From a virus (taxonomy: Duplodnaviria > Heunggongvirae > Uroviricota > Caudoviricetes): a DNA stretch of 17,813 bases. Below, one piece after another: positions 1,681 through 17,813 of this stretch. A program made the translations under genes and the position numbers. Where the stretch lies: IMG/VR virus record IMGVR_UViG_3300009131_000001, positions 1 through 17,813 of that record; one strand, written 5' to 3'. The notes under the pieces were generated by a model. That model saw only the letters and a program-made list of their open reading frames with translations, was not told the DNA's origin and did not search any database. Within the stretch, counting starts at the first letter, position 1, and each line of letters starts with the position of its first letter.

Positions 1681-4600
1681 ATGGGAAAAAAGAGATTAGA
1701 TACATATGCAGATTTTAACCCAACTCCTAAACAAAATACTCCTATTTTTGAAGGATTGGGGAAAGCCTATGCTAAGAGCACTTTAACATCCCCCGAATTT
1801 GCTGGGGATTATGGTTTAAGAGATACTACAAAGTATGATGTAGGAACTGTAGCAGAAGATATACCTAATATTGAAAGAATTAGAGGTGAAAGACAATCTG
1901 CATTATCTCAAGCAGGTGCTTTTGCTAATCAAGCAATTCTAGGTGAAGTAGTTGGCGGTACAATAATGACATTAGGAGCATTAGCGGAAATACCTGAGTT
2001 AGTATATAAGGGACTTACAGAAAGTGAATCTGAATTTAATAATGCTATATTTGAGGCCGGAGATAGCCTATCTAAGTGGACTAGGGAAGTGACACCTATA
2101 TACCAAACAGGTGATAGATTTAGTGATACTGGATGGTGGTTTCAAAATGGAGTAAGTGTTGCTAGTGCTGCTAGTATGCTGTTGCCTGGAGCAGGAGTTG
2201 CTAAAGGAGTTGGTAAGATAGGTCAACTAATGAAGTGGAGTAAAACTGCTACACAACTTGCTGAAACTGGGCTAGGAGCATTAACTATGCGTCATGCTGA
2301 AAATTTCAGAGAGGCTAATGGAATATTCCAATCTGTTTATAATGAAGCCCTTAATAAAGGATTAGATGAAGAAACTGCTAGGAAACATGCATCTGACGCA
2401 GCAGCATTAGACTACGGAGCTAACTATGCTAATCTAGCATTTGATGTAATCCAGTTAGGGGCTTTAATGAAGCCTACTAAAGCATGGACTAGGAATATAG
2501 GGGGATTAGAGTATGGCTTAGCTAAAGGTTTAGGTAAACTACCTGAATCTAAATTAGGCAGGGCTATGTATTGGTCTAAAGATAAGTTACTCCCACAACT
2601 AAGTGAAGGTGTTGAAGAAGTAGTAAATACAGTTTCTCAAAAAGAAGCTGAGAGATATGGTAGAATCCTTAATGACCCAACTAAAGATGATAAAACTGAT
2701 TTTACTCAAAGGTTAGGTAACTATTTAGGAGATGCAGAAACTATCGATAGCTTCATTTGGGGAGTTGCTGGAGGGGCAGCATTTCAAGGTATTGGTAACC
2801 TATTAGGTCTAGACCAATCTAATAATGTAGTACAGAATAAGTTAGCAGAGGTTGCTAAGAGACAGGATACTATGGGTAACTACCTATCCAATATCTCAGC
2901 AGCATCTAATAAGGATATTATTACAGATTCTGAGGGTAATATTATTGAAGATTTTAGAGATGCAGATAGAGCAGATGTTACTAGGTATATTGATAGTCAA
3001 ATGGATAAGATGGCATTTGACCTATCACAATCTGCTAGCAGAGCTGGTAATGTAGACTTTCTATTGGAGCATATTGAAAGTCCTGACTTTACTAAACAAA
3101 TGGTTGAATCTGGTATTACTACTCCAGAAGAGGCTAGAGAAAGAGTAAGTAAGATTAAGAATGAGATTGAATTAGGTGAGAAATTATATAAGCAATCCTT
3201 TAATAGATATTACAACCTAGATGTACCTCAAGAAGTTAAGAACTATCTGACAGATAAAACTACTGCTTTAGAGTATGGCAGAGCCAAAGTAGCAGAAATG
3301 AAGGATACTTACTCTAGAGAATATAATGATAACTATGCTCAAGATGAGTACTTAAAGGCTTATGGTAGTAATCCTGCTGTGCAAAATACCATTGATGTAA
3401 TGTCACATCAAATTGCAATTGAGGGGTTAACTCAACAGCTACAATCTGCTAAGAAAGAAGATAAGGAAGATATAAAAAATACTATAGGTAAGCTACAAAA
3501 TAGTTTACAGGATATACAATCAAATAGATTTGGTAATGTTGACCCAAATCTTATTAATCCATCTGTATATGAATCCAAAGCAAGACAACTGGTATTTCAA
3601 CATCAATTTGATAATTTATCAGAGGATATTGCTAAAGAACAATCTCCAGAGAATATTAAGAAAACTGAGAAAAAGGTTGAGAAAACTAAAGAGTCTATAA
3701 AATCAGGTATTGCTAATAATGAGGTAACTAAAAAGAAAGAAGAGAAATCTAAAAGAGTTGCTGCTAATAAATCTATTATTAAGGATAAGGAAGCATTTAC
3801 ACTCAAACCTGAAGAAATACCAACTCAAGAAGAAATTGATAGGACTTTCGAAACTGATGAGGGAGAAGTAGTAGATGTACTAGGAGAAGAAACTTCTACT
3901 AATCTAGAGTTAGTTGGTAAATATGAAGCAGACCCAAATTATGATTTAAAAGTTGGAGATTTACTTGAAGATGGTAGTATAGTACACAAAATAAATAAAA
4001 TCACTACTGGAATAAGAAAGGGTCAGATAGGTATAATTGAAATTAAATCTCCAGATGGTAAAGTTAGTCACCATGATTCCAGAAAAATAAGATTTGACAT
4101 ATACAGGTCTTCAGATGTAATTTCAGAACAAGAGTATAATCAATTTGTTAATACTGGAAAAGTTAGCAATGATAGATTACAATCTATTGCAAGTAAAGTA
4201 ATTAATAAAGAAGAATTATCTAGTAGGGAGAATTCCATATTTACTAATAAAACTGCTGATATTAATACTATTATTAGAGAAGTATCTGGAGATATAACAC
4301 CTCAATCATCAAGACTCCAAGAGTATAATACTAAGAAACAGGAATTAGATACTGAGAGAAATAACATTCTAAGTCAGTATGATGCATTTGAAGCAGAAAC
4401 AGGGGAAAAGTTTACTAAGGAAAGGAAAGAACTTGAAGAGGCTTACAGGGCTAATTTGGACAAGCTTAATAAGGAATATGTAGATGCTATTCCTGAAGGA
4501 GAGAAATTAGAGGCTGAAGTAGAAGATACTGTTGAAGAAACTTCTAATATTCCTGAAGGATTTAATGAGGATAGCGCTAAAGAGGTTAATAATGATATAA

Positions 4601-7600
4601 ACTCTATAGATGATGAATTTCTGGATAATGACAATATTAAAAAACTTAAGAATAGCTATAATGCAATGGCTAGACTGGATAGAGAATACGCTATCAGAAA
4701 TGGAAAATATCAAGAAGTTTCTAATGATTTACATCCTAACCTGTATAAACCTGTACTTAATCCTAACAAGTATGCTCCAGGTACTAAAATAACTCTAAGA
4801 GTTGCTGATAGAAATGATATTCCTGTAACTGACCCTGTTACTGGAATGATTACTACTTGGGGAAGTATTAAGAATAGTGTTAACTATAATGAGCAAGTTC
4901 CTATTGAAATAGTAGATGAGGATAATAATGTACTGGGGTACTACCATGATATTAACTGGACTAGTAATTCTGATAAGGTAGTTAATCCTTTAGAAGATTC
5001 CGAAGAGGCTAAAAAGATTAGAGATTATGTTGTAAGTAGGGGTGAAGTAGAAACTTCTATTACTGAAAATAGGTTTGGAGTTCTCAATAGAACAATGGAT
5101 AATAAAAAGTATCCAGTTAATCAAATAGTTGAAGACCCAAATGTAACTATTGCTGTTGCTGAAAATGCTGTAGAATTATTTGAAAAGAATAACTTTAACT
5201 TAGTTAATAACTTCTTTGCATCTCCTCTACATAAAGGATGGAATTATATGATTGTTCAAGTAGGTAAGAAGCTTGGTACAGATGCTTATATTGCATTACC
5301 TTTATCTAATATGACCTATGATGAGTTAAGTAAATCCAATGAAGACTTATTCCATAAGATTCATTATAGTGTTGAGGCTGCTATTAATATTTATGTAAAG
5401 AATGGGGATAACTTAACTACTGGTGAGAAGAGCCTGTATGAATCTATAAAATCCAAGTTAGGATTAGAATTAGCCTCTCCACAAGGAATTGTATCTTATC
5501 TAGGAGCATTTCTACATAATGATAAAAAATCACCTTTAGGAGAAAAGAGTCAGTTTAAATTTGAAAATGGGAATATAACCTTTAGAAGGAAGAAACCTAC
5601 TAAAGGACAGGCTACTCAATTCTTTGTAGGTAAAAATGTGGCAGATAAAGAAAAGATGTTCCAAATTCTACATGATAATATTGAGTCAATGCTAAAGGCT
5701 CAATTCTTTAATACTAGTAAAGAGTATGTAAATGAAGATGTTAACATCCCATTACTTACAGAATCTGGAGAAGTTGAGACAATGAACTACTTGCATATAG
5801 TTAAATCTGCTACCAAAACAAATATAATGGGTAAGGAAGTAGATACTAATCCAGATGGTAGTAAGGTATACTCATATACAGTTCAGAAGGTAATTAGATT
5901 TGATACTAGTTTTATTGAACCTAAACCTACTGGTACAGATGATACTACAGTAACTATAGTTAATGATATAGTAGAAGAGTCTGATGTAGAGTATGAAGAG
6001 TTAGAACCTATGGAATTCAACTTTGTTGATGATGGGTATTCTTTTGCTGTATCTGAAGATAAATTTGATAGCCTTAGTAATTCTTTAAACTCTTTACTGG
6101 TAAAGGATTTAGGTTTTGCTAGGCAAGATGATATTGTACAGTATATTACTGAGAGAAGTTTAAGTAAACTTTCTGAGAATAAAAGTATAAATATTAAGGC
6201 TACTACTGATGAGCTAAGAGATACTTTTAATAAGAATACTGCTACAGTAGAGTTTAATATAAAGAAGATTAAAACTAATATCCTTAAGGCTAAACAATTA
6301 AAGAAATCTGATGATGTTACTAAGTTTGAACAACAACTTACTAACCTAGAAAACTTTAAAACTTTACTTAGTCAAGTTAATGCTAGTTGGGATAACTTAG
6401 TGGGATTTGCTATTAAAAGGCTTGAAAGACTTAATGGTATTAAAGTAGTTGATAATCAAGATGATGATACTGAATTTGAAAATGATTTATTTGAAATAGA
6501 AGGAGATGAAAATGCTAACTGGAAAGAAAGTGATTTAACTACTGATAGAAAAAAATCTTTAAGTAGAGATGTTAAATTATTTTGTTCTGGTATAGTAGAT
6601 TTAAAGAATGATGGGCAACCTAATAAAACTTGGATTGGTACTAATAGGTTGATGTCTTTTGACACAGTTTATAATACTGTACAGGCATTAACTCCTAATC
6701 TCCCTCCTAATCTAGATGTCATTAAGGATGAACTATCTAAATCTGTAGATGCATTCCCTTGGTTAAATGATTTTATCAGTAAGTTAGACAATGCTAAGGA
6801 TAGTACTAAAAAGTCTATTGTAAAGGCTTTAACCAACTACTATAGCAATACAACTAGTTACAAGTATTCTAAAGATGATTCTGGAAATTACTTTGTTAGA
6901 GTATTTGAATCTGATGCTACTTCAATGGGAAAGGTTATCCTTAATAGTTGGGAATCAAACTTTAATAGAAGTAGGCTAGTTACCTACGACGAAACTTTAA
7001 AATTAGATGAATCTGCTGTAAATATTTGGTTAGATAGGTATGATAATTTAGTTAAAACTAAGGGGGTAAACGTATCTATTGAAGATGTAGTAGGACTGCT
7101 AAATGAAGTTGGAGTTGTGCTGTCAAATGGTGCAATGCAGGATATTAAGAATAATGGTATTGAAATCTCCAAAAGGAAAACTATTAAACTAAATACTATT
7201 CTTAGTGATTCCGCAAGTCCTTTAGTAGTAATTAAGGAGTTTTTAGAACTGAATAAAGGCAAAGAACTTACCACTAAACTAACAACCAATACTGCACTAA
7301 AGGTTCTTGCACAACTACAAAATAGATTTGAATCTAAACTCCACTCTAATTCTCAAAAGAGTGGTGGTAGAACCATTTTTAGTTATGGTAAGCCTAAATT
7401 CTTTATTAACAGGTTCAGAAGATTTAATGATTATGTGGAAGGTAAAGATACTGAGATGGGTAAAATACTCAACTCTCCTTTTGTAACTAACCTTTTATGG
7501 GCTAAAAGTTTAAAGGATATTCATAAGAGAGAGGCATTCATGGCAAACTTTGACTATGAAATTGCTGATTTGGAACCTATTAGTGAGTTAGGGGAGAAAA

Positions 7601-10600
7601 GTAGAAAAGGAAGAGAACTTACTAATGTATCTCCTGCTGAAGTCGAACTGTTTAGACTATCTGGATTAATGGCTAAGAGGGCTGATAAATCTGGTGGAAA
7701 GAATAGGGTTATTAGTCTAGTACACCCAACTACTTCAGATAAGAGTACCATTCATAGCATTACCTCAATTGCTGCTGATTTAAAGTTTAATCCTGATGGC
7801 AGTTTTACAGAGGAATCCTACAAGATACTATTTGATAATCTAATTCTCCCTGAGATAATTAGGATTAGACATTTTGAGGCTTTGAGGGATAAGGGTATTG
7901 ATATATCTAAATTTGAGGGATGGGCTGATGGATGGGATAAATTTATGACTATTCCTGAAATGAATTCTTATGAGGAACTATTTATAGGAGATAATCTTAA
8001 TCCAGACCTTGAATCTAACTATAGGGATATTATAGACAGAGTTCTTAAGAAGCATATTACAGCCTTAGTTGAAGAGAAAACTAGATTATGGGATAAGTAT
8101 TCTATAGGATTAGATATTAAAAATGCAAATAATAAGGTAGTTGAAACTAGTAAATTTCTAGATAATGATTATCTAGGATACCTAGCAAGTAAAGGTGCAA
8201 AGGATAATACTAGAGTTGCTGCTATATATGATATGGTAGGACAATACCTTATTGGAGATACTAATACTTGGGGATTATTTAATACTGACCCAGCACAATA
8301 CTTTGATAAGAAAGCATTAAAGGCTTGGAATGAGGGTAATAAAGATTTGGCAATTCAAAAAGTATTTGAAAATATGGGTAAGAGACTTGCGGCTGATATT
8401 GCCCCAGGTGAAGAATCTGTTGCTAATGATAGTGGTACAATTACCTATGCTTTTGTTAAAGACCCTAAAGTTACCTCACTAAGATTTGAGCAACTTAAGG
8501 AGCAGTTTGGAGATTCCATTGCTAATGCTTATGATGGAATGGATGGTACAGATGCTCAGGAATTTGTAACTCTTCAAGAACATTTATTTAATATGGATGC
8601 AGATGGATTACTTCCAGATGGAATGTATGATATTATTGCAAAAACTATTCAAGAAGAAATTAGTAAGGGAAATCATTACTATACAGATACTATCATAGCA
8701 AATTTAAATGCTATAAATCCTGATTTAGGAAGTAAGTTTAAAGAATTGGTATTCCAAGTTAAGAAGCCTGTTTATGTAGAAAATGTATTTGATAGTGATT
8801 TAGGAGTTGAAAGAAGAGTATATGTTAAATCTTCTGCTTATCCTCTAACTCCAGAATTATGTGCTCAAGTTCAAATGGATGATGTCAGAATAGCAATGGA
8901 GCAGCAAGGTATTCAAAGACTTGCATTTGCTACGGCAACTAAAGTTGGTAACTATAAAAAGAATATTGAACTATTTGATACTGATGGTAATGTTAAGCCT
9001 AACATAGATTTCTCTACTTCTAAGATGGTAGTTCCTAGAAGTGGGTTGAGAGATCAGATGCCTGTTCCTTATGATGAAATGAAGAAGGAAATTAAAAAGG
9101 TATCTCAAGCATCTAAGAATCTATTTGTTAATATTAAGGATGTTCCAGGAATGGCTGAACTAGAGCAGGAATACCTTAATACCTACCATGAAATATTTAA
9201 GGAGCAGTATGCTAAACTACAATCTGAAGTATTAAATGAAAATGACACACTAAATATTCAGAATCTTAGAGAAATACTACTCGAAGAGGCTGCTGGTAGA
9301 GGATATCCACTATCAGATTTCCAGATGCTAGAGTTAGATGAGAATTTAAGACTTCTACCATTTAGTCCTAATGCTGCTAAGTATGAATCATTACTTAACT
9401 CTATTGTTGAAAATAGGGTAGATAAGGTAATGTTACCTGGTAAATCTTTTGTACTATCTACCGAGTTAGGGTACAAGGTGAAACCTGCTGAAATACTAGA
9501 AGGTAATGCTGAAAATATATCTAAACTTAAAGGTAAAGGATTAGTTACCACTAGAAACTTTACTGGAGAATTACTACCACAAAGACTTGAAGATGGGGCA
9601 GTTAAGCCAGCACAAGTTATTATGCCATTTAAGTTTAGGGATAACAATGGTAATCTACTTCACATAGAGGACTTTATGGATGGGGATGGATTTGTAGATA
9701 CTAGTAAGTTACCAGAATCTGTACTTAAGTTGTTTGGAATGCGTATCCCTAACCAAGGGCCTAACTCACAATCTGCTATTGAGGTAGTTGGATTCATGCC
9801 TCATAGTGCTGGGGATGTAATAGTTGCAACTAAAGACTATCTAGCACAAATGGGTTCTGACTTTGACGTGGATAAGTTATATGCTTATATGTTTGAAACT
9901 GAATACAGAGATGGTAGAATAGTTAAGAAGGATTCTTTAAAGAATAAGATAGTAGATATCCACCTACAAATACATGCTAATCCAGACCCAAGAGTACAAA
10001 GACAAATTGCTAAACCTATTGGTGAGTGGAAACTTAAGGATATTGCTAATGAAGTAACTAAACTTAAACCTAAAGACCATACACCATTTAGTCCTGCTAG
10101 TGATAACTATCAGAAGATGAAGTTTATAAACGCGGTATCAGGTAAGGCAGGCACTGGGGTTTATAGTGTTGCTTCAATGTTTATTGCTAATATGCAAGGT
10201 AAGAGCCTTATATATAAAGTAACAGATGAACTAGGTAATAAAGTACCGATTCAACTAAATATAGGAAATACTGTATGGAATGGAGATATATCAAATATTT
10301 ACACAATAAGGACTCAAAATTTAATTGAAAATGCTGGTGGATACAATAAACTTAACGATGATGAAAAGAAGCAAATAACCTATAAATCTGAGGTTGTAGA
10401 GGGGCATCAATCAGTTGCTGTAGATAATGAGAAGTTACAGTTAATGGATAAAACCAATGATAATAAGTTTACCTTTAACTATACTATTGCTGCAATGTCT
10501 GCTGGATTTGAAGATGAGTTAGTATGGTTAAGAAGTCAGCCTATTATATTTGATTATGTTGAGGAATTACAGTTTCTTAAATCTCCGCTATCAGGCTTCT

Positions 10601-13600
10601 TTGGTAATGCTGAATCAGAGGCTTATCATAGAGTAGTTGAGAAGTATGGATTTACAGAAGATATGGTAGGTAAGTCTAATCCAGCATTACTTACTATTGA
10701 AAACATGAAGAAAAGTATTGCTGGCGGTAATGAGGGATTTAAGGGTATTCAGAATGCTGCAATAGAAACATTCTTAAAGTTACATGAGATAGGATTAAAG
10801 ATTCAATCTGTTACATCTGCTACCAATACAGATAGTAAGGGTATTGGTATTACTATGTTAAGTAACTATGCTAAACAACAGGCTGTTGAAAACTTAGTTA
10901 ATAGTCCTATTGAGAATGCTGAAAAGTTATTAGGCAACTTTAATGTAGATGGTAAATTGGTTGAACCCACTACAATAGCTGGATTTGCTACTAAATATGG
11001 TCTAGAAACTGCTAATAACTACTGGAGTAACCTATTCCCATATCAAACTAACTCAGTTCAAGAAATGTTTAATAAAATTCTTGAATTAACTGGTTCTGAA
11101 GAAGTTGGATATACAAGTAAGGCTAATACTCAACAGGATATTTGGACTGATTTTAAGAGTTATTTATTCAGTAGAAATGACTTAGGCATAGTAGAAGATG
11201 GTACTGATATAAATAGTGAAAGAGATAGGCTATTTATTGATAGAATGGATAAGAAAGGTAATGTAACTAAGAAATCCTTTATTGCTAAGATGCAAGAGAT
11301 ATCTGAATTACCTGAGATGAAGAGAAGACCTTTTATTAATAGGCTCAACTTTACTATTGATTACAATGATAATAAAAATTCTAGAGTTGGATTTAATGCA
11401 TCTGCTGCTGAAAATTTAGAGGAAATACAAATTTACCAGGATATTATAGACTTACTAGTTAATGACAGACCTATTCCAAATAGTGATATGACTTCTAGGC
11501 AAATGATGGAAGATTTAATTAAAACTCAGTATCTAGGTGGAGGTATTCAAGAGGCTATACAGTTTATTAAGTATATCCCAGCACAATACTACTACTTAAT
11601 TCCATTTGCTGAGAAATTATCAAATGTCTGGAATGAGTTGAATGTATCTAATAACACATGGTTAAACTTTAATAGTGATTCATTACCTAACTTTATTGAG
11701 CAGTATATCCAGCATAATCCTAATAAGATAACTGATATTAAGATAGAATCATTTAAAAAGGATGATAAGGGCAATACTATTATTACAGATAAATCCATAG
11801 TCACTAAGAAAGATGATGAGAAAACTTCAGAACCTTATGTAAAAAGATACAATCCTAAAGCAAAAGGTAATAAGACTGAGTTATTTAAGTTTACTGGAAA
11901 GTTCTGTATGAAAGGATACCCTATATACATTCAGATACCCACTCTAGGAGCATTTGGTATGAGTGAGTACAATGCTAATCTACCTCAAGGCAGTATGCAA
12001 ACCTCTCTACTAATGACTACTCCAACAGTTAATCCTATAGATGCTAAGAATACAGTAGATAACTCAAACAACAACTCTACTGAAATTAGCAATCCTTTAA
12101 CTAAACTAAATAAAGTTGAGGAAACTGCATATAATCTAGGATTATCTACAAAAGAAACTGATTTAAAATCAATTCTAGAGAAAACTAGTGTAACCACTTC
12201 TAATCCATACTACCAACTACTTGCTAGTGAAATGGTAAATGTGGTAGGTAATACTAAGATAAGTATTGATAATTCTGTAGCAGGCGATGGGATGTATAAT
12301 CATTTAGAAGATACGATTAAAATTAATGTGCCATCTATTCAAAATCCTGCTAAACTTGCTGATATTATTCTACATGAAGGAATTCACGGAATAACTTCAA
12401 AGACTATTAAACAATACTTATCAGATAAATCTAAGTTACCTGTTAAAGTAAGAGAAGCTTGCGCATCTTTAGATACTTTAAGAAATACTCTAAAGGATAA
12501 GGTAAAAGACACTAAAGAATATAAAGAATACTTGGCTAAACAATATAAACGTAAGAAAGGTGAAAAAATAGTGTTTAGTCTAAGTGAAGCATCTCAATTT
12601 GCGCCACTAGATGATTTATTTGAATTTGTTTCCTATAGTTTAACTAGACCTGAAACACAAAAGTGGTTAAATGGTATTGAGTATAAGAAAGACCAAACTG
12701 CTTTAGATAGATTTAAGGATTTACTTAATAAGATATTCTTTGCTTTAAGGGGTATGGGATTTGAAATTAAGAGTGGTACAGCATTGAGTACAGCATTTAA
12801 GAATTCTGTTGTAGTATTAAATGCTCAGGAACTATATGAATCTGATGCAACTGTAGTACCAATTACCAAACTATTTAATCAATATGGTATAGACTATAAA
12901 TTTACTTTAAAAGGTGATGTAGTTGTAAATGCTGAATACAAGCAACAAAATAAAGAAGAATATGAAGAATTGAATAAGAAAAATTGGAATAGTAAATACA
13001 ATGAATTATTGCAGGAAGAAAGTAAGATATTCAATAAAATAGAAGATACGGAAGAATTAAGTGATTATGAATTATTCCCCGGTATATTTGCTAATGAAGG
13101 GCAGAGAAAAGCTATAGATACCCTTAAAAATTTTATAAATTCTGATAGAGAAGTGTTTACATTAATTGGAAGGGCTGGAACTGGTAAAACTACTATTTTA
13201 AATAAAGTACTAAGCGTGATACCTAAATCTATTAGAGTAGGGGGAGCGGCAGTATCACATAAAGCTAAAAAAGTATTAGGTAAAAGTATTGGTAATGATA
13301 AGGTAAGTACTTTAGCATCAATGTTGGCAATAAAATTAGATGAATCTACTGGAAAATTTACTCCTGATGAATTTGCCAGAGAACAAGGTAAAGTTCCTAT
13401 TAAAAAATATAAATTAATAATTGTAGATGAAGCCTCTATGATTTCTGAGGAAATGTATAAAGAAATTCTTAATATGAAAAATCCTACTACTAAAGTAATT
13501 TTTGTGGGAGATAATGCACAACTTCAACCAATTGGTAGTGAGGAAGATAGTCCTGTATTTAGTATTAATGATAAAGCAAAATTAACTGAGATAACTAGAC

Positions 13601-14895
13601 AAGCGAAAAATAGTCCAATATTAAATGTAACTAGTAAAATTGCTCAAAATATAGAATCTAAAACTTCAATATTAAAAGTAATAAATAAGGAAGATAGAAT
13701 TGATCTCTATGATCCTACTACTAATTCTTCTTTAATATTTACAAAAAATGAGGAAAAAGCTATTGATAGTATTGTTAATGATATTAAAAATTCTCAGGGA
13801 GATGTAAACTATATTAAAGCAGTGACTTTTAATAATGAAGTGCATAATAGTCCACAAAGTGTTAAAAATTTAAATATTAAAATAAGAAATAAATTATGGG
13901 GAGAACAGTCTAAAAATCAATTTAATATTGGAGAAATTTTAACAGCCTATGATGGGTATAGAAGAGATATTGGGGCAGATACTGATGAACAACCAATATT
14001 TAATTCAGAAGATTATACAGTTAGCGGAATAGAGAATATAAAGAATCTTAGGCACACTATTTTAGTACAATCAAAAAAACAAGGTACGAGAACATTTACA
14101 TATAATTATGATATAGTAATTGTGTCTTTAAAGGATTCTGATGGTAATGATATTGTAGGGTATTCTGTGCCTGTAATTGCTGAGGCATCTAAAGAACAAT
14201 TTGAAAAAGATTTAAGACATTTGTGGAATACTGATAAGCAATTAGCATTTAAATTAAAAGAGCAGTTTGCTAATTTACACTATGGTTATGCAATAACTTC
14301 TCATAAAGCTCAAGGTTCTACTTATAAAAATGTATATGTATTTGAAGATAATATTTTAGGGAAATCTAATGCTAGTTCTATAGTAAATAAAAATAAATCT
14401 CTATATGTAGCTACTTCTAGAGCAAGTAATAAATTAGTGGTAGTAAGTAATGATAATATAAAATCTGATGCAACTGTATCTAAACCAACATTTGATACTT
14501 CTAAATTTACTCTTACCCCAGAAGATTTTACAGAAGGAGATATTATAGAATCACTTGCTGTATTTGAAGAAGAGCCATTTAACTCATTACCAAGTAGAAA
14601 GGATGTTTATAATCAGTTTAAAATTTGGGATGGTAAGTTAAATAGACCTGAGACTTGGAGTATGAATGTTGACAGAAATGCTTTAATTAAGATTGCTCAG
14701 AATATCAATAAGAATAATGAAGTATATTCTGCTAAAGTAGAGCAACAACAATTCTTAGATAAGGGTAAGTATTCTACTAAACAGTATATACAACTAACCA
14801 TGAAACCTGAATTTAATAACTTGAATACTAGAATGGAATACATAATGAATAATAAGGAGAAGTTGGAAGAGTTGATGAAGACTTGTAAGTATTAA
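1681..14895 (+). CDS. Giant virion-associated RNA polymerase polyprotein, crAss-like (hydrophobic N-terminal region + RNAP + zincin peptidase + SF1B helicase), 4404 aa
   Basis: Uninterrupted 4404-codon ORF in the standard code. Catalytic DxDxD loop GSDFDVDKLY (DFDVD 9859-9873) preceded by MRIPNQG (9739-9759), matching the RIP...DFDxDK signature of crAss-like two-barrel RNAPs. Zincin and helicase motifs lie downstream. Confidence 0.92.
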   Translation: MGKKRLDTYADFNPTPKQNTPIFEGLGKAYAKSTLTSPEFAGDYGLRDTTKYDVGTVAEDIPNIERIRGERQSALSQAGAFANQAILGEVVGGTIMTLGALAEIPELVYKGLTESESEFNNAIFEAGDSLSKWTREVTPIYQTGDRFSDTGWWFQNGVSVASAASMLLPGAGVAKGVGKIGQLMKWSKTATQLAETGLGALTMRHAENFREANGIFQSVYNEALNKGLDEETARKHASDAAALDYGANYANLAFDVIQLGALMKPTKAWTRNIGGLEYGLAKGLGKLPESKLGRAMYWSKDKLLPQLSEGVEEVVNTVSQKEAERYGRILNDPTKDDKTDFTQRLGNYLGDAETIDSFIWGVAGGAAFQGIGNLLGLDQSNNVVQNKLAEVAKRQDTMGNYLSNISAASNKDIITDSEGNIIEDFRDADRADVTRYIDSQMDKMAFDLSQSASRAGNVDFLLEHIESPDFTKQMVESGITTPEEARERVSKIKNEIELGEKLYKQSFNRYYNLDVPQEVKNYLTDKTTALEYGRAKVAEMKDTYSREYNDNYAQDEYLKAYGSNPAVQNTIDVMSHQIAIEGLTQQLQSAKKEDKEDIKNTIGKLQNSLQDIQSNRFGNVDPNLINPSVYESKARQLVFQHQFDNLSEDIAKEQSPENIKKTEKKVEKTKESIKSGIANNEVTKKKEEKSKRVAANKSIIKDKEAFTLKPEEIPTQEEIDRTFETDEGEVVDVLGEETSTNLELVGKYEADPNYDLKVGDLLEDGSIVHKINKITTGIRKGQIGIIEIKSPDGKVSHHDSRKIRFDIYRSSDVISEQEYNQFVNTGKVSNDRLQSIASKVINKEELSSRENSIFTNKTADINTIIREVSGDITPQSSRLQEYNTKKQELDTERNNILSQYDAFEAETGEKFTKERKELEEAYRANLDKLNKEYVDAIPEGEKLEAEVEDTVEETSNIPEGFNEDSAKEVNNDINSIDDEFLDNDNIKKLKNSYNAMARLDREYAIRNGKYQEVSNDLHPNLYKPVLNPNKYAPGTKITLRVADRNDIPVTDPVTGMITTWGSIKNSVNYNEQVPIEIVDEDNNVLGYYHDINWTSNSDKVVNPLEDSEEAKKIRDYVVSRGEVETSITENRFGVLNRTMDNKKYPVNQIVEDPNVTIAVAENAVELFEKNNFNLVNNFFASPLHKGWNYMIVQVGKKLGTDAYIALPLSNMTYDELSKSNEDLFHKIHYSVEAAINIYVKNGDNLTTGEKSLYESIKSKLGLELASPQGIVSYLGAFLHNDKKSPLGEKSQFKFENGNITFRRKKPTKGQATQFFVGKNVADKEKMFQILHDNIESMLKAQFFNTSKEYVNEDVNIPLLTESGEVETMNYLHIVKSATKTNIMGKEVDTNPDGSKVYSYTVQKVIRFDTSFIEPKPTGTDDTTVTIVNDIVEESDVEYEELEPMEFNFVDDGYSFAVSEDKFDSLSNSLNSLLVKDLGFARQDDIVQYITERSLSKLSENKSINIKATTDELRDTFNKNTATVEFNIKKIKTNILKAKQLKKSDDVTKFEQQLTNLENFKTLLSQVNASWDNLVGFAIKRLERLNGIKVVDNQDDDTEFENDLFEIEGDENANWKESDLTTDRKKSLSRDVKLFCSGIVDLKNDGQPNKTWIGTNRLMSFDTVYNTVQALTPNLPPNLDVIKDELSKSVDAFPWLNDFISKLDNAKDSTKKSIVKALTNYYSNTTSYKYSKDDSGNYFVRVFESDATSMGKVILNSWESNFNRSRLVTYDETLKLDESAVNIWLDRYDNLVKTKGVNVSIEDVVGLLNEVGVVLSNGAMQDIKNNGIEISKRKTIKLNTILSDSASPLVVIKEFLELNKGKELTTKLTTNTALKVLAQLQNRFESKLHSNSQKSGGRTIFSYGKPKFFINRFRRFNDYVEGKDTEMGKILNSPFVTNLLWAKSLKDIHKREAFMANFDYEIADLEPISELGEKSRKGRELTNVSPAEVELFRLSGLMAKRADKSGGKNRVISLVHPTTSDKSTIHSITSIAADLKFNPDGSFTEESYKILFDNLILPEIIRIRHFEALRDKGIDISKFEGWADGWDKFMTIPEMNSYEELFIGDNLNPDLESNYRDIIDRVLKKHITALVEEKTRLWDKYSIGLDIKNANNKVVETSKFLDNDYLGYLASKGAKDNTRVAAIYDMVGQYLIGDTNTWGLFNTDPAQYFDKKALKAWNEGNKDLAIQKVFENMGKRLAADIAPGEESVANDSGTITYAFVKDPKVTSLRFEQLKEQFGDSIANAYDGMDGTDAQEFVTLQEHLFNMDADGLLPDGMYDIIAKTIQEEISKGNHYYTDTIIANLNAINPDLGSKFKELVFQVKKPVYVENVFDSDLGVERRVYVKSSAYPLTPELCAQVQMDDVRIAMEQQGIQRLAFATATKVGNYKKNIELFDTDGNVKPNIDFSTSKMVVPRSGLRDQMPVPYDEMKKEIKKVSQASKNLFVNIKDVPGMAELEQEYLNTYHEIFKEQYAKLQSEVLNENDTLNIQNLREILLEEAAGRGYPLSDFQMLELDENLRLLPFSPNAAKYESLLNSIVENRVDKVMLPGKSFVLSTELGYKVKPAEILEGNAENISKLKGKGLVTTRNFTGELLPQRLEDGAVKPAQVIMPFKFRDNNGNLLHIEDFMDGDGFVDTSKLPESVLKLFGMRIPNQGPNSQSAIEVVGFMPHSAGDVIVATKDYLAQMGSDFDVDKLYAYMFETEYRDGRIVKKDSLKNKIVDIHLQIHANPDPRVQRQIAKPIGEWKLKDIANEVTKLKPKDHTPFSPASDNYQKMKFINAVSGKAGTGVYSVASMFIANMQGKSLIYKVTDELGNKVPIQLNIGNTVWNGDISNIYTIRTQNLIENAGGYNKLNDDEKKQITYKSEVVEGHQSVAVDNEKLQLMDKTNDNKFTFNYTIAAMSAGFEDELVWLRSQPIIFDYVEELQFLKSPLSGFFGNAESEAYHRVVEKYGFTEDMVGKSNPALLTIENMKKSIAGGNEGFKGIQNAAIETFLKLHEIGLKIQSVTSATNTDSKGIGITMLSNYAKQQAVENLVNSPIENAEKLLGNFNVDGKLVEPTTIAGFATKYGLETANNYWSNLFPYQTNSVQEMFNKILELTGSEEVGYTSKANTQQDIWTDFKSYLFSRNDLGIVEDGTDINSERDRLFIDRMDKKGNVTKKSFIAKMQEISELPEMKRRPFINRLNFTIDYNDNKNSRVGFNASAAENLEEIQIYQDIIDLLVNDRPIPNSDMTSRQMMEDLIKTQYLGGGIQEAIQFIKYIPAQYYYLIPFAEKLSNVWNELNVSNNTWLNFNSDSLPNFIEQYIQHNPNKITDIKIESFKKDDKGNTIITDKSIVTKKDDEKTSEPYVKRYNPKAKGNKTELFKFTGKFCMKGYPIYIQIPTLGAFGMSEYNANLPQGSMQTSLLMTTPTVNPIDAKNTVDNSNNNSTEISNPLTKLNKVEETAYNLGLSTKETDLKSILEKTSVTTSNPYYQLLASEMVNVVGNTKISIDNSVAGDGMYNHLEDTIKINVPSIQNPAKLADIILHEGIHGITSKTIKQYLSDKSKLPVKVREACASLDTLRNTLKDKVKDTKEYKEYLAKQYKRKKGEKIVFSLSEASQFAPLDDLFEFVSYSLTRPETQKWLNGIEYKKDQTALDRFKDLLNKIFFALRGMGFEIKSGTALSTAFKNSVVVLNAQELYESDATVVPITKLFNQYGIDYKFTLKGDVVVNAEYKQQNKEEYEELNKKNWNSKYNELLQEESKIFNKIEDTEELSDYELFPGIFANEGQRKAIDTLKNFINSDREVFTLIGRAGTGKTTILNKVLSVIPKSIRVGGAAVSHKAKKVLGKSIGNDKVSTLASMLAIKLDESTGKFTPDEFAREQGKVPIKKYKLIIVDEASMISEEMYKEILNMKNPTTKVIFVGDNAQLQPIGSEEDSPVFSINDKAKLTEITRQAKNSPILNVTSKIAQNIESKTSILKVINKEDRIDLYDPTTNSSLIFTKNEEKAIDSIVNDIKNSQGDVNYIKAVTFNNEVHNSPQSVKNLNIKIRNKLWGEQSKNQFNIGEILTAYDGYRRDIGADTDEQPIFNSEDYTVSGIENIKNLRHTILVQSKKQGTRTFTYNYDIVIVSLKDSDGNDIVGYSVPVIAEASKEQFEKDLRHLWNTDKQLAFKLKEQFANLHYGYAITSHKAQGSTYKNVYVFEDNILGKSNASSIVNKNKSLYVATSRASNKLVVVSNDNIKSDATVSKPTFDTSKFTLTPEDFTEGDIIESLAVFEEEPFNSLPSRKDVYNQFKIWDGKLNRPETWSMNVDRNALIKIAQNINKNNEVYSAKVEQQQFLDKGKYSTKQYIQLTMKPEFNNLNTRMEYIMNNKEKLEELMKTCKY
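1921..2811 (+). other. Gly/Ala-rich hydrophobic segments in the polyprotein N-terminus (possible membrane-inserting/ejection region)
   Basis: Three segments: FANQAILGEVVGGTIMTLGALAEIPELV (1921-2004), GVSVASAASMLLPGAGVAKGVGKIG (2149-2223) and SFIWGVAGGAAFQGIGNLLGL (2749-2811), in an otherwise highly charged protein. The membrane role is inference. Confidence 0.5.
4129..4329 (+). repeat. 12-bp direct repeat pair CAAGAGTATAAT (QEYN) bracketing a 63-codon segment
   Basis: Copies at 4129-4140 and 4318-4329, 189 bp apart, same frame. The sequence match is certain; its significance is not. Confidence 0.6.
8380..9900 (+). other. RNA polymerase catalytic core (two double-psi beta-barrel region); boundaries approximate
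   Basis: KRLAADIAPG (8380-8409), TDAQEF (from 8548), KSSAYPL (from 8827), ATKVG (to 8949), RIPNQG (9742-9759), DFDVD (9859-9873). The first four resemble crAss RNAP conserved blocks as I recall them; the last two are the firm evidence. Confidence 0.85.
12200..12720 (+). other. Zincin-like metallopeptidase domain within the polyprotein; boundaries approximate
   Basis: IILHEGIHG with HExxH at 12373-12387, preceded by G-x-Y-(strand) GMYNHLEDTIKIN and followed by a candidate third ligand Glu in LFEFVSYSLTRPETQKWL (Glu at 12622). Confidence 0.8.
12839..12855 (+). repeat. 17-bp direct repeat, left copy (AATCTGATGCAACTGTA)
   Basis: Identical to 14462-14478; both copies encode SDATV in the same frame. 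Confidence 0.95.
13090..14445 (+). other. SF1B (RecD2/Dda/Pif1-like) helicase domain fused in frame within the polyprotein
   Basis: Motifs in correct order: NEGQRKAI; I GRAGTGKT (13168-13191); Ia AAVSHKA; II IIVDEASM (13417-13440); III FVGDNAQLQPI (13501-13533); IV LTEITRQ (13582-13602); V YGYAITSHKAQGSTY (14281-14325); VI LYVATSRA (14401-14424). Confidence 0.92.
14462..14478 (+). repeat. 17-bp direct repeat, right copy (AATCTGATGCAACTGTA)
   Basis: Identical to 12839-12855; offset 1623 bp = 541 codons; lies about 13 codons after helicase motif VI. Confidence 0.95.
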
Positions 14896-14925
14896 TAGAT
14901 TGGGAGATTTCTCTCCCCTATTTTT
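14896..14925 (+). terminator. Intrinsic terminator after the RNAP polyprotein gene
   Basis: Stem GGGAGA (14902-14907), loop TTTC, TCTCCC (14912-14917), extendable by TAG/CTA with a bulge, then TTTTT (14921-14925); begins right after the TAA stop. Confidence 0.8.
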
Positions 14926-14956
14926 ATTCAATATGTATAAAATATAAAAAAATTTT

Positions 14957-14996
14957 TACTCAAATTGAGTACTTTTAAATTTTTGAATAAAAGTAC
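14957..14996. repeat. Two overlapping perfect inverted repeats (candidate operator/origin site)
   Basis: TACTCAA-A-TTGAGTA (14957-14971) and GTACTTTTA-N10-TAAAAGTAC (14969-14977 / 14988-14996), sharing GTA at 14969-14971. Confidence 0.65.
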
Positions 14997-15252
14997 CCTA
15001 TTGTTATTTTATAGATGCTTATAATAATAGATAGTAAAAACTTTCTAAATATTTGATTTGCAGATAATTGATTGATTTGAATATGTTGAGATAATATAAT
15101 AAATATATCGGCTCGCTATAATAACATTAATCTATACCAACACATTTATTAATCAAAATTTAATTAATAATTGTCTCACCCAAAAAATAAATCTATAACT
15201 AAAAAATGATTAATACAAAATGTTAAATAGCAATGAATAAATTTAATGTATT

Positions 15253-15285
15253 TTTGATTAACTAAAATTCCCTTACTATATTTGC
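15253..15285 (+). promoter_or_regulatory. Bacteroidota housekeeping-sigma promoter (-33 TTTG / -7 TAnnTTTG)
   Basis: TTTG (15253-15256), 20-nt spacer, TATATTTGC (15277-15285): exact consensus at canonical spacing, 25 nt before the ATG at 15310, followed by an A-rich leader with no Shine-Dalgarno. Confidence 0.85.
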
Positions 15286-15309
15286 GTAAACAAAAAAAAT
15301 AAACAAACT

Positions 15310-15768
15310 ATGGGAAAAGTTTACAATACTACAAAAAAAGTAGTGATAGATTCATCTACTGGGGAAGTGATTAGTGAAGAAAATACACAATGTTACAAAA
15401 CAAAAGAACCTGCATACATAAAAACATATGTGGATGATTTAGTTAAAATTACAAGTATTCCTGATAGGAATAAAAATGTTTTATTATGCATGTTAAAATA
15501 TGTTGGATATGGTAATGATATAGACATCTCAATTAGAATAAAAACTAAAATAGCAGTAGAATTAGGATGTGGAGTTGGGAATATTAATAATGCAATAAGT
15601 GCTTTAAAAAAAGCGGGTATTTTAATCAGCACATATAGAAGTTGCTACCTACTTAACCCAGATTATTTTGCTAAAGGGGACTGGATAGCAGTAAATAAAA
15701 TAAGAACTACTATTGAATATAGTAAAAATGGTAAGAAGATTATTAGTGATTTTATAAATACTAAATAA
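15310..15768 (+). CDS. RepL-like winged-helix DNA-binding protein (152 aa)
   Basis: VIDSSTGEV...EPAYIKTY N-terminus, HTH-like KIAVELGCGVGNINNAISALKKAGIL, and wing motif YLLNPDYFAKGDW, resembling the plasmid RepL (PF05732-type) family. A role in replication is not shown. Confidence 0.7.
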   Translation: MGKVYNTTKKVVIDSSTGEVISEENTQCYKTKEPAYIKTYVDDLVKITSIPDRNKNVLLCMLKYVGYGNDIDISIRIKTKIAVELGCGVGNINNAISALKKAGILISTYRSCYLLNPDYFAKGDWIAVNKIRTTIEYSKNGKKIISDFINTK

Positions 15769-16397
15769 GAATAGTATGATATATTTAATGCAAAATAGAG
15801 ATTTCTTTAAAATCGGATATACTGATAATTTGGAAGGTAGATTATCTTCTTTGCAAACAAGTAACCCAGAAACTATATTATTAGCTGTTATAGATGGGGA
15901 TATTAAAGAAGAGAAATTATTACACAAAAAATTTGAGAAATATAGATATTCTAATGAATGGTTTTTTAAAAGTATAGATATATACGAATATTTTAAAAAT
16001 ACTACAAATGATAATAAATATTCAAATTTATCAACTAATATATCAATTCCAGTAGATCCTAAATCTAAGATATTTTCTGATGTAAGAGCATTTAGATTTT
16101 TATTATACTTTGGTACATTTATGTCAGAATCAAGGAGAAATCATTGTGGTAATATTCTATATATTGATAATTTTATCAAGAGTTATGTTTGTAAAATGAT
16201 GCATATAGAAATACCTTCTTTTAGAAATACTTTATCTTACATGATTCATAATAATATGATGGTAAAACACCCCTCTTTAAAAAATACATACATGTTAAAT
16301 CCAAATTATTTCTATAAAGGAGAATACAGTCATCATATTAAGTGTATACAGTATTATAATACGTTAGAAAATAATAAATTAGAAGAATAATATGATA
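15767..16397 (+). repeat. 15-bp near-perfect direct repeat pair spanning two start codons
   Basis: AAGAATAGTATGATA (15767-15781) and AAGAATAATATGATA (16383-16397), 14/15 identical, 616 bp apart; each contains the ATG of the following gene. Confidence 0.7.
15776..16390 (+). CDS. T5orf172/MUG113-type GIY-YIG nuclease domain fused to a C-terminal RepL-like winged helix (204 aa)
   Basis: N-terminal IYLMQ...FKIGYT...RLSSLQTSNP...EKLLHKKF...R..NEWF pattern; C-terminal FRNTLSYMIHNNMM...YMLNPNYFYKGEY parallels the upstream protein's YLLNPDYFAKGDW. Confidence 0.75.
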   Translation: MIYLMQNRDFFKIGYTDNLEGRLSSLQTSNPETILLAVIDGDIKEEKLLHKKFEKYRYSNEWFFKSIDIYEYFKNTTNDNKYSNLSTNISIPVDPKSKIFSDVRAFRFLLYFGTFMSESRRNHCGNILYIDNFIKSYVCKMMHIEIPSFRNTLSYMIHNNMMVKHPSLKNTYMLNPNYFYKGEYSHHIKCIQYYNTLENNKLEE

Positions 16398-17813
16398 CTA
16401 TCATGCCCTGATAAAAATACTACTGACTGGAAAAAGTTAGTAACCTACTTAGGTAGTGAGCAAAAGGCTATGGCTGCTTACTATGCTAATAGAAGTGAGA
16501 TACCTTCTATTGAAGAGTTGGAAGGCAAAGGAATAGGTAAAGATGAAGTACCTAGATTCCAAAGACTTATTGATAATATACAAAGACAAGTACAAATTAT
16601 TGATAAGGAAATTATTACAGCAAGAACTAAAATGTCTGACCTTGCTAAATCTAAAAATGAAAAGGCTAAAAGAGATGCCTATCTACATTTTCAACAGCTT
16701 GAAAGAGAGAAAGATAAGTTAGTTAAACAGGCTATTGAGGTTAAAAAGTTAGATAGCATTGAGAAGATTATTCCTATTGCTGAGGAACAGATTCAACAGG
16801 CTAATAATATCCTTGAAAAAGAAATATTAACAGGTGTTGATTTAGCCAGAGTTCATACTATAGCAGATGTATGGAGTAAATCTACCTCTATAGATGCAGG
16901 TGAAACTATATTCTTTACTGAGGAAGAAATACAGGCTATTAGAGAAGGAGACCCTGTATTTAAGGAAAGACTGGATAAGCTTAACTTTATTAGAACTCTT
17001 GCTGAGGATTTGAATGGTAGATGGTTACAGGTTAGTAATATCTACCTTAATAGTATGGGTATAGATAAGTTTGGTAGTAACTTTTACTATGATTTTAAGC
17101 AAGCCTATAAAGATGCTAATTGGGCTAAGAAGATGGTTATGTCTGTTAGTGACAGTGATAATCAACTACATCAGTTGCTATTCAGAGTTGCTAAAGATGC
17201 TAATACTGAAGCAGGTATAGAAGCTAATGAACTGGTTGCTGAAATTGATAAAATGTTTAAAGGATACAAAGGAGATTATAGTGAATTTGCTCAAGAATTT
17301 TCTGATGGTAGAAAAACTGGTAATTTAGTAAGTAGATTCAGTTACAAGTACTACGAGGAAAGTAAGTTACTTAAGGATAAGTTAGATAAGGTACTACTTA
17401 ATATTGAGGAATCAGATTCTCCTTTAAAAACTAAAATGGAATTAAAGGGTAAGGCATATAAGGATTATGCTTCTAAACTTAGGAATAGATCAATTATTCT
17501 TGACCCCAGAATACTCTTTCCTGAAGGGGGTGTTAGTATAGACGAAGGTAAGAAATTAGAGCATATTAAGCTTCTTAAGGATACTTTAGGAGAGAAAGGG
17601 TATAAAGACTTCATTGAAAGATTTAGTAGCAAAATAGAGGCATTTAAAGAGCAATCTGAGGCTATTAATGAAAGGTTACAGGCTGAATATGGGGAGGAAT
17701 GGTTTAGGGAATATGAGCATTGGGATGCTGAAAATAACCCATATAGATTAGCAGAAAGATTAATTGATGGTAAAGGAGAAAGTAAGATTAATGGAGAAAC
17801 TGTTAAACCTAAC
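16392..17813 (+). CDS. 3'-truncated large protein (>474 aa), probable next virion cargo protein; absent from the supplied ORF track
   Basis: Hand translation from ATG 16392 is stop-free to the window end: MILSCPDKNTTDWKKLVTYLGSEQKAMAAYYAN...KTGNLVSRFSYKYYEE...WDAENNPYRLAE...VKPN. Codon usage returns to the core style (frequent AAG/GAG/GCT). Helical/coiled-coil-like composition. Confidence 0.85.
   Translation, partial: MILSCPDKNTTDWKKLVTYLGSEQKAMAAYYANRSEIPSIEELEGKGIGKDEVPRFQRLIDNIQRQVQIIDKEIITARTKMSDLAKSKNEKAKRDAYLHFQQLEREKDKLVKQAIEVKKLDSIEKIIPIAEEQIQQANNILEKEILTGVDLARVHTIADVWSKSTSIDAGETIFFTEEEIQAIREGDPVFKERLDKLNFIRTLAEDLNGRWLQVSNIYLNSMGIDKFGSNFYYDFKQAYKDANWAKKMVMSVSDSDNQLHQLLFRVAKDANTEAGIEANELVAEIDKMFKGYKGDYSEFAQEFSDGRKTGNLVSRFSYKYYEESKLLKDKLDKVLLNIEESDSPLKTKMELKGKAYKDYASKLRNRSIILDPRILFPEGGVSIDEGKKLEHIKLLKDTLGEKGYKDFIERFSSKIEAFKEQSEAINERLQAEYGEEWFREYEHWDAENNPYRLAERLIDGKGESKINGETVKPN

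What the first reader, a model, noticed from the sequence alone, without database searches (positions are those of the whole stretch)
1681..14895. Virion RNAP + zincin protease + intact SF1B helicase in one 4404-aa chain
Seen: all three catalytic signatures are intact in one ORF. Established: crAss-like phages package an RNAP with a DFDxD loop that is delivered to transcribe early genes (phi14:2 gp66), and zincin domains are reported alongside these RNAPs. A fused RecD2/Dda-like helicase is not part of the architecture I know for them, though helicases and zincin-like peptidases do co-occur in phage polyvalent proteins. Inference: a co-ejected helicase could melt template for the RNAP, help pull in the genome, or strip host proteins from incoming DNA as T4 Dda displaces proteins.
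Basis: partly seen in the sequence, partly recalled or inferred. Interest (0 to 1): 0.8.

Follow-up and report, generated by a model that had tools for sequence, protein, structure and literature searches.

The report
Swappable helicase cassette on phage polymerase
A crAss-like phage has gained, inside the giant RNA polymerase protein that it is inferred to pack into its particle, an intact DNA-unwinding enzyme as a neat in-frame cassette that its closest relatives lack; such fusions are common in this phage group but I found no paper describing them, and they may help the injected polymerase open the incoming DNA.

Summary
Confirmed: one 4404-aa ORF (1681-14895), identical in three assemblies, joins a gp67-like N-terminus, a phi14:2 gp66-type RNA polymerase (model matches 6VR4, TM 0.78), a gp65/N4-type zincin and a full Dda-type SF1B helicase (T4 Dda, Z 30.6), all motifs intact. 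The fusion is common: 36 of 120 polymerase homologs and RefSeq cr118_1 and cr50_1 carry it, and this scan had already noted it in at least 16 other genomes. I found no text on it in the papers I could search. What this locus adds: the helicase plus a 59-aa leader domain is a 541-codon insert absent from the four closest relatives (75% identical polymerase), bounded by an exact 17-bp direct repeat, low in GC3, under purifying selection, and laterally acquired (nearest helicases, 52-59% identical, sit on polymerases 21-34% identical; AU p=0.0007). A distant phage has the same two-part cassette between a different 17/18-nt repeat. Other modules (ART, NADAR, RNase H) occur in relatives. So the helicase is an optional co-delivered module, not an obligatory polymerase part. 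Most likely job (about 45%, untested): opening and clearing incoming DNA for a polymerase that prefers single-stranded template. New variant of a known kind.

The parts
1681..14895 (+). Virion cargo polyprotein gene, 4404 aa (P0001)
1681..3960 (+). gp67-like N-terminal region (aa 1-760)
   Evidence: family profile to phi14:2 gp67 E 8e-9
5989..12120 (+). gp66-type two-barrel RNA polymerase (about aa 1437-3480)
9859..9873 (+). Polymerase catalytic loop DFDVD (aa 2727-2731); the three Asp are invariant in 65 homologs
12118..12840 (+). Zincin (MPTase) domain, aa 3480-3720; HExxH at 12373-12387, probable third ligand Glu3648
12839..12855 (+). Left copy of exact 17-bp direct repeat, at the left junction of the cassette
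12859..13035 (+). Leader mini-domain (aa 3727-3785; three strands and a helix), seen only in helicase-bearing proteins (19 of 19)
13066..14451 (+). Dda-type SF1B helicase (aa 3796-4257); Walker A at 13168-13191 (Lys3836), Walker B 13426, motif VI Arg4247
14462..14478 (+). Right copy of the 17-bp direct repeat, 1623 nt (541 codons) from the left copy
14464..14895 (+). Conserved C-terminal tail (aa 4262-4404, ends with Cys4402), joined directly to the zincin in the four relatives
14902..14917 (+). Intrinsic-terminator-like hairpin right after the stop codon
   Evidence: consensus scan only
16392..17813 (+). Start of the next cargo gene (1233 aa, runs to genome 20093), homologous to the C-terminal part of gp65
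   Evidence: E 5e-15

Best explanation
What it is (shown by comparison, about 0.9): a Crassvirales cargo polyprotein (gp67-like + gp66 polymerase + gp65-type zincin + tail) into which a two-part cassette (leader mini-domain + Dda helicase) was inserted in frame at a linker, with a 17-bp duplication of the target, from a distantly related crAss-like phage. How it works (inferred): the protein is made late, packaged, and ejected partly unfolded with the other cargo; the monomeric helicase refolds in the cell, tethered to the polymerase or released by the zincin, loads on a single-stranded stretch of the entering genome and moves 5' to 3' with ATP, opening duplex and pushing off bound proteins. 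This gives the polymerase, which prefers single-stranded template, more usable template before any phage gene is expressed. It is a booster that lineages gain and lose, not a required subunit.
For: Clean insert against four relatives with tail and zincin contiguous; repeat at both independently defined junctions, null maximum 11 nt in about 3000 trials; cassette GC3 0.126 against 0.174-0.244 in same-size windows; nested among helicase-free polymerases; identity inversion and AU p=0.00075; same cassette limits and a 17/18-nt repeat in P0191; dN/dS 0.11 and 0.05 against a second strain; Walker A intact in 65 of 67 and Walker B in 67 of 67 fused helicases. gp66 prefers ssDNA and its relative QDE-1 needs a helicase. 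gp65-67 and crAss001 gp47/49/50 are virion proteins. The helicase is by far the commonest recognised add-on (36 of 120; NADAR 4, RNase H 4, ART 2). Dda is monomeric, 5'-3', unwinds DNA and removes proteins (PMC11551737).
Against: phi14:2 and cr109_1 encode no Dda-type helicase, yet phi14:2 transcribes its early genes, so no phage Dda is needed. The helicase position varies (N-terminus, before, inside or after the polymerase), and 22 of 148 near helicases are on large proteins with no detected polymerase or zincin (some may be fragments), which argues against a specific contact. Dda-type enzymes need a single-stranded loading site (own knowledge). No virion proteomics or activity data exist for any fused helicase.
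Confidence: 0.45

Rival explanations
1. Counter-defence effector: the polyprotein is only a delivery vehicle, and the helicase strips host sensing, restriction or CRISPR complexes from the incoming DNA, independent of the polymerase.
For: Relatives carry conflict-type modules in the same region: ART-PolyVal 29 codons downstream in P0002, NADAR in P0007, a DprA/SLOG-like piece in P0073; at least 21 state changes on a 123-tip tree; position-independent; fits the polyvalent-protein pattern (PMC5512222).
Against: One polymerase clade (P0013-P0036) mostly keeps the helicase, with a tree broadly following the polymerase; no target known; overlaps partly with the best explanation (protein clearing).
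Confidence: 0.28
2. Relocated replication or recombination helper: the ordinary Dda of crAss-like phages, delivered early to aid circularisation, R-loop priming or fork passage through transcription complexes.
For: In eight genomes checked, fused (window, cr118_1, cr50_1) and standalone (Fpv1, crAssphage, crAss002) copies never co-occur; standalone copies lie beside DNA polymerase genes; T4 Dda lets replication pass bound RNA polymerase (reference title).
Against: Eight genomes only; two have none; a few packaged copies made late are a poor supply for replication; an earlier scan note (e1-1968506, not tested here) reports both forms in one phage.
Confidence: 0.17
3. Motor that pulls the genome into the cell.
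For: Fused to ejected cargo; the zincin part of the model resembles a PhiM1 ejectosome protein (Z 12.0, borderline for helical domains).
Against: Absent from most relatives although ejection is essential; Dda tracks single strands; ejection is thought to be pressure-driven (PMC10172136).
Confidence: 0.05
4. Neutral passenger or selfish cassette tolerated in a linker.
For: Recent gain, flanking repeats, empty relatives.
Against: dN/dS 0.11 with intact motifs; costs 541 residues of limited cargo space; no mobility gene in the cassette.
Confidence: 0.05

Closest known systems
Cellulophaga phage phi14:2 gp67-gp66-gp65 virion RNAP block (PDB 6VR4; Drobysheva et al., 10.1101/2020.03.07.982082)
   Same: Same order of parts, same polymerase fold and DFD[IV]D loop, same zincin; fusion into one polyprotein is reported there for other phages.
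   Different: Here gp67-like, gp66 and the zincin half of gp65 are one chain, the rest of gp65 is a separate gene, and a Dda cassette is inserted; phi14:2 has no Dda.
Suoliviridae cr118_1 YP_010110531 ('exonuclease V', 4946 aa) and cr50_1 YP_010110216 ('DNA helicase', 4774 aa)
   Same: RNAP, HExxH and C-terminal SF1B helicase in one ORF, no second Dda in the genome.
   Different: HExxH lies N-terminal of the polymerase there; helicases only 26-29% identical and on other branches; records name only the helicase.
T4 Dda (PDB 3UPU) and standalone crAss Dda genes
   Same: Full-length fold match, SF1B motif III form, all motifs.
   Different: Standalone, made during infection; here embedded in virion cargo with a leader mini-domain.
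Polyvalent proteins (Iyer et al. 2017, PMC5512222), including N4 vRNAP-MPTase fusions
   Same: Large injected protein, MPTase, virion polymerase, interchangeable ART and other modules.
   Different: Their polymerases are T7-type and their helicases SWI2/SNF2, rarely UvrD-like; no crAss, RecD or Dda mention.

Membership tests
Crassvirales virion RNAP (gp66 family) | DFD[IV]D catalytic loop | tested here: met
   aa 2727-2731, invariant Asp
Crassvirales virion RNAP (gp66 family) | Single-chain two-barrel fold like 6VR4 | tested here: met
   E 3.3e-113 profile; TM 0.78
Crassvirales virion RNAP (gp66 family) | Lies in the cargo block after the muzzle and C1/C2 genes, with gp67 and gp65 homologs | tested here: met
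   (relatives)
Crassvirales virion RNAP (gp66 family) | Packaged in the virion and transcribes early genes | not testable with these tools
   inferred from gp66 and crAss001 cargo
Dda-type SF1B helicase | Walker A/B, motif III of SF1B form, motifs IV-VI with arginine finger | tested here: met
Dda-type SF1B helicase | Full Dda fold rather than RecD2 or Pif1 | tested here: met
   Z 30.6, 412/439 aligned; RecD2 27.1, Pif1 21.5
Dda-type SF1B helicase | ssDNA-dependent ATPase and 5'-3' unwinding | not testable with these tools
   needs assay
Zincin / MPTase | HExxH on a helix with a downstream Glu | tested here: met
Zincin / MPTase | Homology to N4 vRNAP MPTase and gp65 zincin | tested here: met
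   E 3.6e-7 and 5e-12; Pfam SprT-like only E 0.09
Zincin / MPTase | Proteolytic activity, cleavage of the polyprotein | not testable with these tools
   needs assay; several homologs lack a canonical HExxH
Polyvalent proteins | Several unrelated enzyme domains with an MPTase in one large chain, variable between relatives | tested here: met
Polyvalent proteins | Listed among the described architectures | tested here: inconclusive
   no crAss/Dda/RecD in the main text; the full online set was not seen
Repeat-bounded mobile cassette | Direct repeat at both junctions with a single copy at the empty site | tested here: met
Repeat-bounded mobile cassette | Excised allele present in the same population | tested here: inconclusive
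Repeat-bounded mobile cassette | Own integrase or transposase | tested here: not met
   cassette holds only the leader and helicase

The most novel reading that the evidence does not exclude
crAss-like phages exchange whole enzyme cassettes in frame among their injected polymerase polyproteins through short direct repeats, and the commonest cassette, a Dda helicase with its own leader domain, is the phage-borne factor that opens duplex DNA for the single-strand-preferring virion polymerase, which would answer, for these lineages, how this polymerase class starts on double-stranded genomes.
Probability: 0.25. Interest if true: 0.8.

Novelty: new variant of a known kind. Interest (0 to 1): 0.57.

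Why it matters
How crAss virion polymerases transcribe a double-stranded genome is open: purified gp66 works well only on single-stranded DNA. A natural pair, the same polyprotein with and without one helicase cassette with base-exact limits, makes the helper hypothesis directly testable. It also shows that the injected cargo of an abundant phage order is a platform for gain and loss of whole enzyme domains, and that public records hide these polymerases under names such as 'exonuclease V'.

Tried and rejected
Assembly chimera or readthrough: rejected. Vertical inheritance of the helicase with the polymerase: rejected for this locus. Flanking repeats as a rule for all inserts: not supported; the ART insert of P0002, two inserts of P0004, the aa 744-874 inserts of P0001 and the helicase insert of P0105 have only 4-7 nt matches, within the null, and only 4 of 121 helicase-bearing proteins are bracketed by a 5-residue repeat (about 0.7 expected). 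Repeats of 17-20 nt also occur by chance in these AT-rich genes, so the weight rests on the position at both junctions. Empty or filled junction searches in public contigs found nothing. Close relatives in IMG/VR not found. Whole genomes of the four closest relatives were not held, so I could not see whether they have a standalone Dda. Leader mini-domain: no Pfam, PHROG or Atlas hit, not folded alone. Single-sequence PDB search missed 6VR4; the profile found it. Yutin 2018 not held. No complex prediction was run: the parts are one chain and the polymerase exceeds the size limit.

Full report
Observation. The ORF 1681-14895 is real, 4404 codons without a stop, at the start of a 99,711-nt circular genome with a 123-nt terminal overlap. 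The identical protein occurs in three assemblies from ENA, Logan and JGI.

Domains. A profile of 65 homologs hits only 6VR4 among solved structures (E 3.3e-113), and a confident model of aa 1950-3140 matches 6VR4 (TM 0.78) and then QDE-1. Family profiles map aa 1-760 to phi14:2 gp67, aa 1437-3480 to gp66, the zincin to the N-terminal part of gp65, and the next large gene to the C-terminal part of gp65. The zincin also hits the N4-like virion RNAP profile in the region that Iyer et al. identified as an MPTase. The helicase model covers 412 of 439 residues of T4 Dda at Z 30.6, ahead of RecD2 and Pif1. The genome has no second Dda.

How common. Of the 120 listed polymerase homologs, 36 carry the helicase; that search covered only proteins of 2422-7707 aa and the 1475 best candidates, so the share applies to this neighbourhood. 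RefSeq phages cr118_1 and cr50_1 have the fusion under automatic names. The helicase lies at the N-terminus, before the polymerase, between polymerase and zincin, after the zincin, or between parts of the polymerase core match. Presence changes at least 21 times on a 123-tip tree, fewer than shuffled labels (minimum 26), so it is both inherited and labile. Other homologs carry ART, NADAR, RNase H, histidine phosphatase, ASCH or DprA/SLOG-like modules. This scan had already recorded such fusions in at least 16 genomes; those are unchecked notes, not support.

What is special here. The four closest relatives (75-76% identical polymerase) have zincin and tail joined directly; the window has 541 extra codons between them. 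An exact 17-bp repeat (12839-12855, 14462-14478) sits at both junctions, and the relatives have one diverged copy. Against random junction pairs the longest match was 11 nt. The cassette has GC 0.274 and GC3 0.126, below every same-size window of the gene. The protein is nested among helicase-free polymerases. Its nearest helicases (52-59%) are on polymerases only 21-34% identical, while polymerases 43-48% identical carry helicases 28-33% identical; an AU test rejects grouping it with the latter (p=0.00075, quick tree of 34 rows chosen from the larger set). A second strain has the same left junction, with dN/dS 0.11 for the first 87 helicase codons and 0.05 for the leader. The leader mini-domain occurs in 19 proteins, all with the helicase. 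In P0191, a distant phage, leader plus helicase (545 codons) lie between a different 17/18-nt repeat at the same limits (0 of 1500 random pairs reach this, but it was picked from 121 proteins, so suggestive). Most other inserts show no repeat, so either repeats decay or several routes exist. One crossover between the copies would restore a 3863-codon gene; I could not find that allele.

Mechanism. Shown: architecture, insertion limits, lateral origin, purifying selection. From the literature: gp66 and neighbours are virion proteins, ejected partly unfolded; gp66 transcribes single-stranded DNA well and duplex poorly, and QDE-1 needs a helicase; Dda is a monomeric 5'-3' helicase that removes proteins. 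Inferred: the helicase is co-delivered and acts on the entering genome. I rank opening and clearing template for the polymerase first (0.45), counter-defence second (0.28), relocated replication helper third (0.17). phi14:2 and cr109_1 lack any Dda, so it cannot be a general requirement. Fused and standalone copies did not co-occur in eight genomes.

Known or new. Polyprotein fusion and the zincin are published. I found no text on a helicase in these proteins, but Fig. 3 of Yutin 2021 and the 2018 paper could not be seen and may show it. Polyvalent proteins give the general precedent with other polymerase and helicase types. Verdict: real, common, apparently undescribed in text; a new variant of a known kind, with an unusually clean natural with/without pair. 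Interest 0.57.

Noticed in passing
window 14896-16390: A terminator, an AT-rich 400-nt gap with a Bacteroidota-type promoter-like TAnnTTTG near 15277, a RepL-like gene (15310-15768) and a T5orf172/GIY-YIG-like gene (15776-16390) separate the two halves of the gp65 homolog; relatives keep a 152-156 aa gene here but not the T5orf172 gene.
   Followed up: partly
window 14884-14886 and 16404-16406: The polyprotein ends with Cys4402 and the next cargo begins with Cys5; phi14:2 gp67, gp66 and gp65 have cysteines only at facing ends. The cassette went in upstream of the tail and left this Cys in place.
   Followed up: partly
window 3910-4302 (aa 744-874): Two further inserts: about 65 aa unique to this genome and about 63 aa shared with P0005; no family hit, no flanking repeat.
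   Followed up: partly
L005 (P0002 aa 3616-3814): ART-PolyVal insert 29 codons downstream of the helicase site in a close relative.
   Followed up: partly
L006 (P0004 aa 3259-3408) and P0007 aa 3151-3464: The same position in the polymerase C-terminal region (window aa 3268) takes a 150-aa unknown insert in one relative and a NADAR-containing insert in another.
   Followed up: partly
P0085, P0088: Intein-type domains (Hom_end, LAGLIDADG) appear to interrupt the fused helicase near Walker A.
   Followed up: no
P0161, P0163: The helicase lies between two parts of the polymerase core match.
   Followed up: no
L015 6001-7512: A standalone close relative of this helicase clade (46%) sits among bacterial genes in a genome assembly.
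   Followed up: partly
L014 138-869: In the second strain the gene stops shortly after the helicase motif Ia region near the end of a 1-kb contig, where the sequence switches to an upstream part of the gene; probably an assembly artefact.
   Followed up: no
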